A stretch of 8,607 nt of DNA from a virus, in the UHGV virus genome UHGV-0254280, one strand, 5' to 3'. A program made the translations under genes and the position numbers. Each line of letters opens with the position of its first letter. The stretch's first letter is position 1. Shown here piece after piece: positions 1 to 8,607 of this stretch. Below the pieces are notes generated by a model, which saw only the letters and a list, made by a program, of their open reading frames with translations, was not told the DNA's origin and made no database searches.

Positions 1-552
<552 letters not shown>

Positions 553-556
553 TGTC

Positions 557-1762
<1,206 letters not shown>

Positions 1763-1775
1763 TTACCCCACAAAA

Positions 1776-2135
1776 TTACTTGCCAACATTAAGCCCATTT
1801 GATTTAAATAAATCATAAACCAATCGGTACACTCTATCCTTATAAAGATATATGTATGAAATAAATTGAACATGGAGGATGATATTAAAGCAGTACTGAA
1901 TATTTAAAGGCAGGTAACTGAATGCAACTACAATAACATCGAGTTTATTAACATCGGAGATTTGACGAATAATAAAATTGACGGCAGATACAAGAGCATA
2001 ATATGAAGTGTAGCAAAGACCAAGATAAGAAAGGAGCTTAGCCCATGCAACAGCTTTATCACCGATAACTCCTGCAATGAAACGTAGTGATTTTAAAACA
2101 ACATCAACAAAAAAAGCACCTAAAATGGCCCACAT
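1776..2135 (-). CDS. Minor coat protein pVI-like
   Basis: 119 aa, hydrophobic, sitting between gIII and gI. The ATG overlaps the gIII stop (ATGA), which suggests translational coupling. Assigned by position and size only. Confidence 0.6.
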   Translation of the reverse strand: MWAILGAFFVDVVLKSLRFIAGVIGDKAVAWAKLLSYLGLCYTSYYALVSAVNFIIRQISDVNKLDVIVVAFSYLPLNIQYCFNIILHVQFISYIYLYKDRVYRLVYDLFKSNGLNVGK

Positions 2136-3487
2136 CAGAGTTTTACCTCACGTTCAAATAATGTACGGCGAGAAATAACAAAAACGCGTAACATGGTTAT
2201 CATATAAATAGCATATTCAAGAACAGAACGAACATAATCGTCATAAGCTTTTGCAAAATGGCTTGTATCAATCTTGAAATTAATAGCGCCAATCAACGGA
2301 AGATCAAAGCTAAATTGTAAAATAAAAGGAAGAGCAGTTCCATTATTTGTATTTACCAGTTTGTCAATATTAACTGTAAGCCAATTGTTATTATCATGAC
2401 TCTCACTTCCCTGTCCTGGCAAGTAATGCGAAAGCTCCCCTAAAGGGAAATCCCCATCAGGCAAAGAAGAAGCTATATTCTGACTAATATCTTTAATACC
2501 ATTGTCCAGTGAATTTAATGCATTATTCATATCAGCCTGAGAAACAGAAAAAGCATTATTTAAATCATTCACTGACACCCATATTGTTTTTAACCAGCCC
2601 AAAATACCATCAAGCCAGCCATTGTCATCGCCGGATGAGCCACCGGATCCTGAACCTGAACTACCGCTACCGGATGAACCGCCGGAGCCACCGCTACCGG
2701 ATGAACCACCGGAGCCAGAACCTGAACCACCACTGCCGGATGAGCCGCCGGAACCCGAGCCGGAGCCACCGCTACCGGATGAACCACCGGAGCCAGAACC
2801 TGAACCACCACCGGAACTGCCGCCGCCTGGGTTACCACCACCGGAACTGCCACCACCTGAGCTACCGCCATCCTCCTTACCATCGGAGAATGCAGGATCT
2901 ACAGCAACTGGTTTCCAGTCGGCAGTACAAACTGTATCATCATCGGGATTACAAATAAGAGGATTGCCGGTTGCCTCATAAATACACCCCTGCACATTAA
3001 CATAACGGGTCCCGTCATCACCTTTATAAACATCAGAAAAAGTCATACCATCAAGAACCGGACGAGAAAGACAAATCTCGTCAGTTGGCGGCTTATTATA
3101 TTCAGGTGTCAAATCCCCCTCACCACCCTGAAAAGAAAGGGTGCAGGCTGTCCACTTTTGCTTGTCTGAATCCCAGACTTTATATGCTGACCACCGGGCA
3201 CGGACAAAAGACCCGACAGTCGAAGGTGCATTAACAGGCGTGGAAAGTGGCACACCACAATAATGAATTATTCCGGAACATGCGTCATAATTGCCCGAAC
3301 CACAGAAAAGATGACCGGCCGCCCTGGCTAATTTAATCGACGTCCCCGCGTCCGAATAATCTGTCCTGCAGGATGAATGGCCTGCACACTGAACAAGTGC
3401 ATCCGGATTTTCTTTCTCTTCAGCGAAAGAAAACGAGGAAAAGAACAAAAACAGAAGCGGAATAATAAAGTGAATCAAACAAAACAC
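2135..3487 (-). CDS. gIII: Adsorption / minor coat protein pIII
   Basis: 450 aa. N-terminal signal peptide MFCLIHFIIPLLFLFFSSFSFA, Cys-rich N-terminal domains, a long Gly/Ser linker of about 90 residues, and a hydrophobic C-terminal anchor. Located directly after gVIII and its terminator. Confidence 0.85.
   Translation of the reverse strand: MFCLIHFIIPLLFLFFSSFSFAEEKENPDALVQCAGHSSCRTDYSDAGTSIKLARAAGHLFCGSGNYDACSGIIHYCGVPLSTPVNAPSTVGSFVRARWSAYKVWDSDKQKWTACTLSFQGGEGDLTPEYNKPPTDEICLSRPVLDGMTFSDVYKGDDGTRYVNVQGCIYEATGNPLICNPDDDTVCTADWKPVAVDPAFSDGKEDGGSSGGGSSGGGNPGGGSSGGGSGSGSGGSSGSGGSGSGSGGSSGSGGSGSGSGGSSGSGGSGGSSGSGSSGSGSGGSSGDDNGWLDGILGWLKTIWVSVNDLNNAFSVSQADMNNALNSLDNGIKDISQNIASSLPDGDFPLGELSHYLPGQGSESHDNNNWLTVNIDKLVNTNNGTALPFILQFSFDLPLIGAINFKIDTSHFAKAYDDYVRSVLEYAIYMITMLRVFVISRRTLFEREVKL
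2620..2880. repeat. In-frame imperfect tandem repeats (27- and 39-bp units) encoding the pIII Gly/Ser linker
   Basis: The motif ccggatg recurs at 2670, 2697, 2736 and 2775 (spacings 27, 39, 39). The protein shows repeated SGSGSGGSSGSGG units. Confidence 0.8.
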
Positions 3488-4569: not shown

Positions 4570-6666
<2,097 letters not shown>

Positions 6667-6708
6667 TTGAGATGTATGATGAGGTATGAAAAAACAGAGG
6701 GGATATAT

Positions 6709-6897
6709 ATGCCAACAAAGCACATAAACGATGTTTTATGGAGAAAGGTAGAGAAAGAAACTGTAAAAGTGGTAACAACACTGGCAATACCAGTAAAAGA
6801 TACCAAAGTTTTAGAATGGATAATCGCAAAAGGACTGGAGTCTATAACAGAAGATGACTACAGGAAATTTGCAAAGACGGATGCAACAAAAAAATAA
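6709..6897 (+). CDS. Hypothetical small protein (62 aa), divergent from gII
   Basis: ATG at 6709 preceded by GAGGGG with a 6-nt spacer. Charged, soluble-looking protein MPTKHINDVLWRKVEKETV... On the strand opposite to all phage genes, in an AT-rich segment. No family recognised. Confidence 0.5.
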   Translation: MPTKHINDVLWRKVEKETVKVVTTLAIPVKDTKVLEWIIAKGLESITEDDYRKFAKTDATKK

Positions 6898-6938
6898 CAT
6901 TATAGTTACCTATCGATACGAAGATTGCTAGAAGCAAT

Positions 6939-7094
6939 ATGCAGACAACCAGTGAATTAATTCTTGACCTGCTGATAAAGCATTTCGTTGTTGGCAGCAT
7001 CACAGGCATGACAATATTCAGCCTGATAACGCTTGTCCCACCGTTGGTGATGACCATACACAACAAACTAAGTAAGGACACTGAAATCCTTTAA
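6939..7094 (+). CDS. Hypothetical small membrane protein (51 aa)
   Basis: Manually translated as MQTTSELILDLLIKHFVVGSITGMTIFSLITLVPPLVMTIHNKLSKDTEIL, with one predicted transmembrane segment. Weak Shine-Dalgarno. Followed by a strong hairpin at 7128-7160. Not in the supplied ORF track (below its apparent length cut-off). Confidence 0.4.
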   Translation: MQTTSELILDLLIKHFVVGSITGMTIFSLITLVPPLVMTIHNKLSKDTEIL

Positions 7095-7099
7095 GGTTC

Positions 7100-7193
7100 A
7101 GTGCGCACAATGACGTTATGTATAAAAAGGCCGCTGCGGTGGAGAGTATCGCAGCGGCCTTTTCAACATAACGCGTGTCACATTATGCGCACT
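7100..7193. other. Putative CTX-type attP: two inverted dif-like XerC/XerD sites forming an imperfect hairpin
   Basis: Site A, plus strand 7100-7126: aGTGCGCAcAA-TGACG-TTATGTaTAAA. Site B, minus strand 7193-7163: aGTGCGCATAA-TGTGACACGCG-TTATGTTgAAA. Compared with E. coli dif GGTGCGCATAA-TGTATA-TTATGTTAAAT (recalled). The two sites flank a perfect 11-bp stem and would pair with a bulged central region in single-stranded DNA. Confidence 0.6.
7128..7160. terminator. Strong hairpin, possible bidirectional terminator (gIV on minus strand, small-ORF transcript on plus strand)
   Basis: Stem AGGCCGCTGCG, 11-nt loop, stem CGCAGCGGCCT. T-runs on both sides (TTTT on plus, TTTTT on minus). Also forms the apex of the attP-like hairpin. 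Confidence 0.55.
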
Positions 7194-7246: not shown

Positions 7247-8464
<1,218 letters not shown>

Positions 8465-8493
8465 TTAAGTGCTGTTTTTCAGTCATGAAGATA

Positions 8494-8607
8494 TTCCGCT
8501 TCCTCGACCACTCGCTCACTGCGTTCGGTCGCCGGATCTGCGGCGAGCGGTACCACCACACGCGCAACTGAAGCATTCTGCCTCTCTGTTCATCCGTCAG
8601 ACCTGCC
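8494..8607. repeat. Third, partial copy of the repeat (Y plus the first part of Z), 39 bp upstream of the gIV start
   Basis: Matches 148-261 with 4 mismatches at a constant offset of 8346 bp. Runs to the end of the window. Confidence 0.9.

What the first reader, a model, noticed from the sequence alone, without database searches (positions are those of the whole stretch)
8494..8607. Window end repeats positions 148-261 at an offset of 8346 bp, but the phase is inconsistent with simple circular overlap
The last 114 bp match Y plus the first part of Z with 4 mismatches, all within the Z portion, so the phage unit is bounded by repeat copies on both sides. However, the sequence before 8494 (gIV start) differs from the sequence before 148 (segment X), and the copies differ by SNPs, so this is not a clean assembler k-mer overlap. 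The two readings are a circular replicative form carrying a Y-Z-X-Y-Z-X-Y array, or tandemly integrated prophage copies.
Basis: partly seen in the sequence, partly recalled or inferred. Interest (0 to 1): 0.5.

Follow-up and report, generated by a model that had tools for sequence, protein, structure and literature searches.

The report
Internal repeat array in filamentous phage
The window's two ends fall inside a short 339-bp tandem repeat that sits between two genes of a chromosome-integrating filamentous phage of E. coli. It is therefore not the phage boundary, and the repeated core resembles a plasmid DNA-replication start signal.

Summary
Positions 8494-8607 repeat 148-261 with 4 mismatches, and the left flanks differ.

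The repeat does not bound the phage. The window is a circular permutation of one inovirus genome, with its genes on the minus strand. The true attachment site is a CTXphi-type folded dif-like hairpin at 7101-7193, and in close relatives the host junctions lie there.

Both window ends fall inside one intergenic tandem array between gIV and gI/zot: Y1-Z1-X1-Y2-Z2-X2-Y3, with a period of 339 bp. About 78 nt of Z1 is missing between position 8607 and position 1, so the predicted unit is about 8685 bp.

The same array occurs within a single-copy prophage (E. coli 600029), within each copy of tandem prophages (E. coli 100416 and a Citrobacter plasmid), and in metagenome contigs. The SNPs specific to copy 1 are shared across these assemblies, so they are not sequencing errors.

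The window alone cannot tell a replicative form from a tandem prophage.

Relatives carry 1, 2 or 3 Y copies, so Y is the constant core. Y plus about 35-50 nt of flank is homologous to the ColE1 ssiA / n'-pas element found in more than 5000 plasmids, and it lies in the orientation expected on the packaged strand. I infer, without a test, that it is a PriA-type complementary-strand origin.

The structural finding is ordinary. The origin lead is modestly interesting.

The parts
8456..8493 (-). Spacer between the gIV start codon and Y1. It is a diverged homolog of the X tail and carries TAAGTGC at 8466-8472, 21 nt from Y1.
   Evidence: alignment of Y modules. The motif has the same 21-nt spacing as at 120-126 and 459-465.
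8494..8550 (-). Y1, the gIV-proximal copy of the 57-nt core (ssiA-like).
   Evidence: The copy-1-specific bases (GCCGGATC, GTACCACC) are shared with copy 1 of L001, L006 and L009.
8551..8607 (-). Z1, first 57 of about 135 nt, cut off by the window end.
   Evidence: Full Z1 copies are present in L001, L006, L023, L025 and L026.
1..147 (-). X1. It would follow the missing 78 nt of Z1. It contains two TAAGTGC iterons at 93-99 and 120-126.
148..204 (-). Y2, the middle copy of the ssiA-like core.
205..339 (-). Z2, a non-coding spacer segment with a short GC hairpin (CCTGCC-AGTCC-GGCAGG at about 256-272).
340..486 (-). X2, with iterons at 432-438 and 459-465.
487..543 (-). Y3, the zot-proximal copy. 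It is the only copy present in single-Y relatives.
   Evidence: Most E. coli hits begin at query position 487.
557..1759 (-). gI / Zot-family assembly ATPase, which flanks the array on one side.
   Evidence: Pfam PF05707.
7247..8455 (-). gIV secretin, which flanks the array on the other side.
   Evidence: Pfam PF00263.
7101..7193 (-). attP: two inverted dif-like sites around a GC-rich hairpin. This is the true prophage junction.
   Evidence: The minus strand folds at -40.2 kcal/mol with z = -10.95. Host junctions in L001 and L023 lie here.
4570..6570 (-). Rolling-circle replication endonuclease (Phage_GPA family).
   Evidence: Pfam PF05840, E = 2.4e-48. It shares 29-33% identity with the Reps of fs2, VFJ and CTXphi RstA.

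Best explanation
SHOWN. The window is one circularly permuted genome of a dif-integrating (CTXphi-type) filamentous phage of E. coli. Its morphogenesis and replication genes lie on the minus strand. The 114 nt at the window end are the first copy (Y1 plus the start of Z1) of a 2.2-unit tandem repeat with a 339-bp period. This array fills the intergenic region between gIV and gI/zot: gIV-38nt-Y1-Z1-X1-Y2-Z2-X2-Y3-13nt-zot. Both window ends lie inside this array. About 78 nt of Z1 is absent between 8607 and 1, so the predicted unit is about 8685 bp, and the offset of 8346 equals the unit minus one period. The phage's real recombination site is the folded dif-like attP at 7101-7193. The array is non-coding and varies in copy number between close relatives (Y alone, Y-X-Z-Y, or three Y).

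INFERRED. Y, together with about 35 nt on the X side (through CACTTACGC) and about 12 nt on the Z side, is a homolog of the ColE1 ssiA / n'-pas element. It lies on the packaged strand in the active orientation. It therefore most likely serves as a PriA-dependent primosome assembly site that starts complementary-strand (ssDNA to RF) synthesis after infection. The Z-X-Y units were probably acquired by recombination at Y with a second inovirus lineage that carries an older, more diverged array. They then expand and contract by unequal recombination or slippage. The extra copies are dispensable.
For: Structure:
- The repeats are at the stated coordinates.
- The full array lies between gIV and zot in L001 (both tandem copies), L006, the single-copy dif prophage L023 and metagenome contigs L025 and L026.
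- Copy-1-specific SNPs are shared between assemblies.
- dif lies at the left junction of L001, the host/phage junctions fall at the attP arms, and the attP hairpin folds with z = -10.95.
- Copy number varies: one Y in L002 and L013-L016, two in L009, L010 and L027, three in the window, L001, L006, L023, L025 and L026.

Non-coding status:
- Every frame has stop codons in every unit, 1-nt indels separate units, and variable sites are spread evenly over codon positions.

ssiA homology:
- Y matches at least 5000 ColE1-type plasmids at 80-91% identity.
- In ColE1 itself the homolog is at 1308-1371. RNAI is at 645-749 on the minus strand, so the homolog lies about 110-170 nt downstream of the origin on the RNA II-sense strand. 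PMC3167613 says Pol I extension from the origin exposes n'-pas/ssiA, but gives no distance; the figure of about 150 nt downstream is from my own recollection of the classic papers.
- The homology extends to GTGTGAT...Y...N21...CACTTACGC in plasmids L003 and L004.

Orientation:
- The window minus strand corresponds to the RNA II-sense strand.
- The minus strand is the coding strand of the phage genes.
- The minus strand is also the strand continuous with the dif top strand at the junctions, as in the CTXphi ssDNA integration model.

Conservation and origin of the units:
- In a lineage whose genes are only about 70% identical, Y is 83-100% identical across the copies (the gIV-proximal copy 83-90%, the inner copies 95-100%).
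- In single-Y phages Y occupies essentially the whole 111-nt intergenic region.
Against: - No experiment supports the origin function.
- Minimum-free-energy folding of Y on either strand is no better than shuffled sequence (z = -0.4 to -1.2; ColE1 z = +1.0 to +1.3).
- The unit alignment shows almost no covariation (1 of 92 pairs), so no structure is supported.
- I could not retrieve the primary papers that give the nucleotide limits of ssiA/n'-pas. Equating Y with ssiA therefore rests on its position relative to RNAI, on review text and on my memory of the pBR322 sequence.
- That the packaged strand is the window minus strand is inferred and was not measured.
- Orientation agreement has a 50% prior.
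- The function of Z and X is unexplained, and single-Y phages show they are not needed.
- The copy number in the window's own source cannot be verified. The last 50 nt or so of the window are identical to copy 2, unlike copy 1 in relatives. This could reflect gene conversion or an assembler path switch.
Confidence: 0.7

Rival explanations
1. The terminal repeat is an assembler end overlap of a circular contig, and the mismatches are sequencing errors.
For: The window contains one complete set of phage genes and no host DNA. Circular contigs often carry terminal duplications.
Against: The match is to 148-261 and not to the window start. The flanks differ. The four mismatches are the same copy-1-versus-copy-2 differences seen in independent assemblies. 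The three-copy array is present in complete chromosomes.
Confidence: 0.02
2. The repeat copies are the prophage boundaries (att-type direct repeats). Alternatively they belong to two neighbouring tandem prophage copies, so that a single phage genome has only part of the array.
For: Relatives do occur as tandem prophages at dif (L001; L006). Tandem arrays are typical of dif-integrating inoviruses (PMC4266046; PMC7307601).
Against: Host junctions lie at the attP hairpin (window 7101-7193) and not at the array. The single-copy prophage L023 contains the whole Y-Z-X-Y-Z-X-Y array between gIV and zot. Each copy in the tandems has its own full array.
Confidence: 0.04
3. The array is real and internal, but Y is not a complementary-strand origin. 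The unit would be some other cis element (packaging signal, binding sites for a phage or host protein at the TAAGTGC iterons, or a regulatory RNA). Alternatively it is a selfish recombination cassette exchanged between phages and ColE1-type plasmids through Y homology.
For: Folding of Y is not significant. The TAAGTGC / CGGGCACTTAYGC repeats are invariant while their spacers vary, which looks iteron-like. The Z-X-Y units are nearly identical between lineages whose genes are about 70% identical, which implies horizontal exchange. ssiA is, to my recollection, not essential for ColE1 replication.
Against: There is no Rfam family and no promoter or terminator consensus. The position and orientation match ColE1 ssiA. 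The CACTTACGC motif at the same spacing is also conserved in plasmids, so it is part of the shared element and not a phage-specific protein site. Z-X is absent from fully equipped relatives, so it cannot be the only packaging signal or origin.
Confidence: 0.22
4. The repeat unit encodes a small protein. PGAP annotates 74-145-aa 'hypothetical proteins' on the window plus strand across X-Y, and another annotation calls a 107-aa ORF at 244-567 on the minus strand.
For: Annotated hypothetical proteins overlap the array in L001, L018, L020, L022 and L006. The period of 339 and the 27-nt indel in L001 X1 are both multiples of three.
Against: The ORF limits differ from genome to genome. 1-nt indels in Y and Z change the frame between units. 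Every frame has at least one stop in every unit, and variable sites are spread 28/21/23 over codon positions. The Y part is shared with plasmids, where an indel and a stop codon break the frame (my reading).
Confidence: 0.03

Closest known systems
CTXphi of Vibrio cholerae (XerCD/dif-integrating inovirus; CTX-type IMEX)
   Same: Both have two inverted dif-like sites that fold into a hairpin attP on the packaged strand. Both integrate at dif with the crossover at the XerC side and regenerate dif at one end. Both form tandem prophages and encode no integrase. Both have an RstA-like Phage_GPA Rep (about 30% identity) and an oppositely oriented small regulator upstream of rep.
   Different: The host is different (E. 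coli) and the genes are only distantly related. This phage encodes its own gIV secretin and carries no toxin genes. To my knowledge CTXphi has no ColE1-like ssi array between gI and gIV.
YpfPhi / CUS-1 and UPphi (dif-integrating inoviruses of Enterobacterales)
   Same: These share the host range, dif integration, tandem prophage arrays that short-read assemblies do not resolve, and a variable Gly-rich gIII (PMC4266046; PMC7307601).
   Different: By their published descriptions they have a different replication module: gII/gV for UPphi and YpfPhi, with UPphi otherwise IKe-like. The present phage has a 666-aa Phage_GPA Rep and a secretin. No nucleotide match was found in the phage collection. 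I made no direct sequence comparison with YpfPhi or UPphi.
ColE1 / pBR322 ssiA (rriA, n'-pas, factor Y effector site)
   Same: There is 80-91% sequence identity over about 60-75 nt, plus flanking motifs. The orientation is the same relative to the strand that becomes single-stranded. [quoted passage not shown]
   Different: Here the element is in a phage intergenic region and not downstream of an RNA II origin. It is present in 1-3 tandem copies interleaved with 282 nt of unrelated Z-X sequence. Its function is untested.
Ff (M13/f1/fd) intergenic region with the minus-strand origin
   Same: Both are non-coding cis-acting modules in an inovirus intergenic region next to gIV, and each is presumed to prime complementary-strand synthesis on incoming ssDNA.
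   Different: The Ff minus origin is recognised by RNA polymerase (established knowledge) and has no sequence similarity to Y. Ff lies downstream of gIV, whereas this element lies between gI and gIV. Ff has no tandem repetition of the module.

Membership tests
Filamentous phage (Inoviridae-like) | Core gene set in conserved order on one strand: RCR Rep, small coat genes, gIII-like adsorption protein, gVI, gI/Zot and (optionally) a gIV secretin. | tested here: met
   Pfam hits: Phage_GPA (E = 2.4e-48), Phage_Coat_A, Zot and Secretin. The ORF order is on the minus strand. Relatives are annotated the same way.
CTX-type XerCD/dif IMEX | Two dif-like sites in inverted orientation that fold into a hairpin attP. 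| tested here: met
   The sequence is at 7101-7193. The fold is -40.2 kcal/mol with z = -10.95 and an internal bulge at the central region.
CTX-type XerCD/dif IMEX | Prophage located at chromosomal dif, with the junction at the XerC arm and a dif site regenerated at one end. | tested here: met
   This was tested in relatives only. dif lies at L001 10481-10508 with 1 mismatch. L023 lies between ydeT and hipA. The window itself has no host DNA.
CTX-type XerCD/dif IMEX | Integration of the single-stranded form through XerC-catalysed strand exchange. | not testable with these tools
   This needs genetics or biochemistry.
ColE1-type ssiA / n'-pas (PriA primosome assembly site) | Sequence homology to the element located about 150 nt downstream of the ColE1 origin. 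| tested here: met
   There are at least 5000 plasmid hits. The ColE1 homolog is at 1308-1371, with RNAI at 645-749 on the minus strand. The nucleotide limits of ssiA come from memory and review text, because the primary papers were not retrievable.
ColE1-type ssiA / n'-pas (PriA primosome assembly site) | The active sense lies on the strand that exists as ssDNA. | tested here: met
   The window minus strand is the RNA II-sense strand. It is also the gene-coding strand and the strand joined to the dif top strand. The identity of the packaged strand is inferred and not measured.
ColE1-type ssiA / n'-pas (PriA primosome assembly site) | A stable hairpin or fork-like secondary structure in ssDNA. 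| tested here: inconclusive
   The MFE z-scores are -0.4 to -1.2 for the phage copies and positive for ColE1 itself. There is no covariation.
ColE1-type ssiA / n'-pas (PriA primosome assembly site) | Stimulates PriA (factor Y) ATPase and directs rifampicin-resistant ssDNA-to-dsDNA conversion. | not testable with these tools
   This requires an experiment.
Circular-contig terminal overlap | The window end is identical to the window start, and the flanks are continuous. | tested here: not met
   The end matches 148-261 and not 1-114, there are 4 mismatches, and the flanks differ.
YpfPhi/CUS-1 or UPphi group | High identity to the published phage genomes. | not tested
Only the published descriptions were compared. 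There was no megablast hit in the phage collection.

The most novel reading that the evidence does not exclude
A natural filamentous phage uses a ColE1-type, PriA-dependent primosome assembly site (phiX174-style priming) as its complementary-strand origin, rather than an RNA-polymerase-recognised origin. This roughly 100-nt signal sits in a 339-bp cassette that amplifies in tandem and is exchanged between inovirus lineages, and shares ancestry with the ssiA of thousands of ColE1-type plasmids.
Probability: 0.45. Interest if true: 0.5.

Novelty: new member of a known kind. Interest (0 to 1): 0.3.

Why it matters
For the scan, this finding is resolved. The end repeat is neither a prophage boundary nor an assembly error. 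It marks an internal, copy-number-variable intergenic array, and the real attachment site is elsewhere in the window. This matters in practice because short-read assemblies and prophage callers cut these phages at the array: several IMG/VR contigs end at the zot stop codon, and that can misplace genome ends.

Biologically, minus-strand origins are known experimentally for very few inoviruses. A ColE1 ssiA homolog on the packaged strand gives a concrete, easily testable candidate. It also links phage and small-plasmid replication signals. The window and its relatives further document an uncharacterised CTXphi-type, dif-integrating inovirus family in human-associated E. coli, with swappable immunity and integration modules.

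Tried and rejected
- Megablast of the whole window against the phage collection gave no match. Z-X against phages in distant mode gave no match. Y against phages gave only vector or small-plasmid contaminants.
- An Rfam scan of the window at E <= 1 found only the attP palindrome, as a spurious miRNA-like hit.
- Rfam found no RNAI in plasmids L003 and L004, and their origins did not align with pUC beyond the Y region. I therefore used ColE1 itself for position and orientation.
- The search for related loci with Zot in genome contigs confirmed no relative. An exact 47-mer from the immunity region also found nothing there, and in viral contigs it hit only a single-Y relative. The source contig of the window was not found.
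- A window-specific gIV-Y1 pattern in the metagenomes found nothing. A degenerate Y/Z junction pattern then gave L025-L027.
- The classic ssiA / factor Y papers could not be opened. One literature search with literal sequences was useless because 'ssia' matched 'Russia'.
- Secondary-structure support for Y and for the unit was sought and not found.
- The consensus promoter/terminator scan of the array was empty.
- A coding reading of the unit was considered and rejected.
- I considered that Z-X might be an IS110 bridge RNA, because a related lineage carries an IS110 transposase. I rejected this because the array is more than 1 kb from the transposase end and is also present in dif-type phages that lack the transposase.
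- A hand-written degenerate Y pattern failed to match, probably because I mis-spaced it. It was not used.

Full report
OBSERVATION

Positions 8494-8607 repeat 148-261: 114 nt, spacing 8346, 96% identity. The four mismatches are at 187, 190, 206 and 210. A chance match of this quality is expected about 5e-53 times in 8.6 kb.

A second duplication, 1-204 = 340-543, sets a 339-bp period.

Two details need correction:
- Two of the four mismatches lie in Y (148-204), so they are not all in Z.
- Both left flanks carry TAAGTGC exactly 21 nt before Y (120-126 and 8466-8472).

WHAT THE WINDOW IS

All large ORFs are on the minus strand. They are:
- Zot/gI at 557-1759
- a gVI-sized ORF at 1776-2135
- a Gly-rich gIII at 2135-3487 (Phage_Coat_A)
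- several small ORFs
- a 666-aa Phage_GPA rolling-circle Rep at 4570-6570
- a gIV secretin at 7247-8455

This is a filamentous phage. It has no close relative in the phage collection. Its Rep is 29-33% identical to those of fs2, VFJ and CTXphi RstA. Related prophages occur in 106 of 5426 complete E. coli genomes.

WHERE THE PHAGE REALLY ENDS

In E. coli 100416 (L001, 97.6% identity) two tandem copies lie between the ydeQRS fimbrial genes and hipBA. The chromosomal dif site, with 1 mismatch, sits at the left junction.

Window 7101-7193 consists of two inverted dif-like sites around a GC-rich hairpin. The sites are AGTGCGCACAA-TGACG-TTATGTATAAA and, on the other strand, AGTGCGCATAA-TGTGACACGCG-TTATGTTGAAA. 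The minus strand folds at -40.2 kcal/mol with z = -10.95.

The host/phage junctions of L001 fall at the XerC-arm side of these sites, and the phage-phage junction is the intact hairpin. This is the CTXphi arrangement, which has been proposed for YpfPhi too (PMC4266046).

The window contains this junction intact and has no host DNA. It is therefore either the replicative form or the interior of a tandem prophage. The tandem phage-phage junction in L001 matches the window's attP region, and an RF junction is expected to read the same, so the window cannot tell which.

WHAT THE REPEAT IS

In L001 the gIV-zot intergenic region reads gIV-38nt-Y1-Z1-X1-Y2-Z2-X2-Y3-13nt-zot in each prophage copy. X1 there is 27 nt shorter.

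The same array is present in:
- each copy of a tandem prophage on a Citrobacter youngae plasmid (L006)
- the single-copy dif prophage of E. coli 600029 (L023)
- two metagenome contigs (L025, L026)

The array is therefore internal to one phage genome. The window's two ends both lie in it. The end stops at Z1 position 57 and the start begins at X1, so about 78 nt is missing. The predicted unit is about 8685 bp, compared with 8739 and 8781 in L001 and L006. The offset of 8346 is the unit minus one period.

The bases that distinguish the window's terminal copy from 148-261 (GCCGGATC, GTACCACC) are the ones that distinguish copy 1 from copy 2 in L001, L006 and L009. They are real, position-specific differences.

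Beyond the position equivalent to 210, the window's Z1 is identical to its Z2. In relatives, copy 1 differs from copy 2 at further sites there. This is either gene conversion or an assembler path switch at the contig end.

VARIATION

- Single-Y relatives have a 111-nt intergenic region that is essentially just Y (L002, L013-L016).
- Three assemblies have Y-X-Z-Y (L009, L010, L027).
- Z-X occurs in only 9 of 5426 E. coli genomes and in two plasmids.
- Seven of those nine genomes carry it in a second inovirus lineage with the order gIV-array-traX-zot-DUF5455-...-rep-IS110 transposase. Its genes are about 70% identical to the window's, but its Y, Z and X are 83-100% identical.
- In that lineage the outer units are more diverged (83-93%) and the array ends in a degenerate X'.

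I infer that the window's lineage acquired Z-X-Y units by recombination at Y, and that copy number changes by unequal exchange or slippage.

CODING OR NOT

Annotated hypothetical ORFs over the array differ between genomes. Units differ by 1-nt indels in Y and Z. Every frame has stops in every unit, and variable sites fall 28/21/23 over the three codon positions. The array is non-coding.

No Rfam family matches it. There is no promoter or terminator consensus, and there is no covariation.

WHAT Y IS

Y matches at least 5000 ColE1-type plasmids at 80-91% identity.

In ColE1 (NC_001371) the homolog is at 1308-1371. RNAI is at 645-749 on the minus strand, so RNA II runs on the plus strand and the origin is near 1200. 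The homolog therefore lies about 110-170 nt downstream of the origin.

Pol I extension from the origin exposes n'-pas/ssiA, the PriA-dependent primosome assembly site for lagging-strand synthesis (PMC3167613). My recollection is that ssiA lies about 150 nt downstream of the origin, which is where the Y homolog sits. phiX174-type pas function is described in PMC5778457. [quoted passage not shown] 1982, cited).

The homology extends beyond Y. In viral / RNA II sense it reads GTGTGAT...ACCGCTCGCC...GGAAGCGGAA-N21-CACTTACGC, and it is shared with plasmids L003 and L004. The TAAGTGC motif is thus part of the shared element.

The window minus strand corresponds to the RNA II-sense (displaced) strand. 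That strand is also the coding strand and the strand continuous with the dif top strand at the junctions. By the CTXphi model it is the packaged strand.

My best inference is that the Y module is the complementary-strand origin, acting by PriA-primosome assembly.

The weaknesses are these:
- Folding is not significant.
- The nucleotide limits of ssiA could not be checked in the primary papers.
- The packaged strand is inferred.
- The roles of Z and X remain unknown.
- One copy evidently suffices.

VERDICT

The idea that the repeats bound the phage is wrong. The ssiA-like identity of the repeated core is a modestly novel, testable lead.

Noticed in passing
window 6571-6900: The region upstream of rep, with its 62-aa plus-strand ORF (6709-6897), is unrelated in sequence to the same region of L001 (18565-18900). 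The flanks on both sides are about 98% identical. This looks like a swap of the immunity/regulatory module. The window's version occurs in IMGVR_UViG_2651869748_000001.
   Followed up: partly
window 7101-7193: A CTXphi-type folded attP, made of two inverted dif-like sites around a GC hairpin. Rfam scored it weakly as a miRNA precursor on both strands, which is spurious.
   Followed up: yes
L002 15390-16355 (E. coli JNE21-009): This is the same phage backbone (about 96% identity). It has an IS110-family 'RNA-guided transposase' directly after rep in place of the dif-type attP. It is inserted near ybiB/hcxB and not at dif. Near-identical inoviruses thus carry alternative integration modules.
   Followed up: no
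L018-L022, L030, L031: A second inovirus lineage carries traX (pilin acetylase), DUF5455 and an IS110 transposase. It is inserted at many different chromosomal sites and in an IncC Proteus plasmid. There are up to 31 Z-X matches per genome, which suggests about ten prophage copies.
   Followed up: partly
L006 10342-10369: A tandem prophage is integrated in a 363-kb Citrobacter youngae IncFIB/IncHI1B plasmid, at a plasmid-borne dif-like site (AGTGCGCATAATGTACGTTATGTTAAAT).
   Followed up: partly
window 2630-2878: Gly/Ser-rich 39-nt and 30-nt tandem repeats in gIII (the linker region). Their length varies between relatives, as reported for UPphi gIII.
   Followed up: no
window 93-99, 120-126, 432-438, 459-465; L001 12093-12120: The X tail holds two direct CGGGCACTTAYGC repeats (viral strand) 27 nt apart. 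They are invariant while the spacer between them varies. L001 X1 lacks one of them through a 27-nt deletion.
   Followed up: partly
L007, L008, L011, L012 (IMG/VR contigs): Several viral-database contigs of this phage end 3 nt after the zot stop codon, at the edge of the array. This suggests that assemblies or prophage calls break there.
   Followed up: no
window 6939-7094: An unannotated 51-aa plus-strand ORF with a hydrophobic core lies between the regulator and attP. Its DNA is conserved in L001 (about 27730-27885). It has no Pfam hit.
   Followed up: no
L003 / L004 (small Rop-encoding mobilizable plasmids): Their Y homolog is about 91% identical to the phage Y. The rest of their origin region shows no blastn similarity to the pMB1/pUC origin, and Rfam finds no RNAI. 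The ssi-like element is therefore far more conserved than the surrounding replicon.
   Followed up: partly
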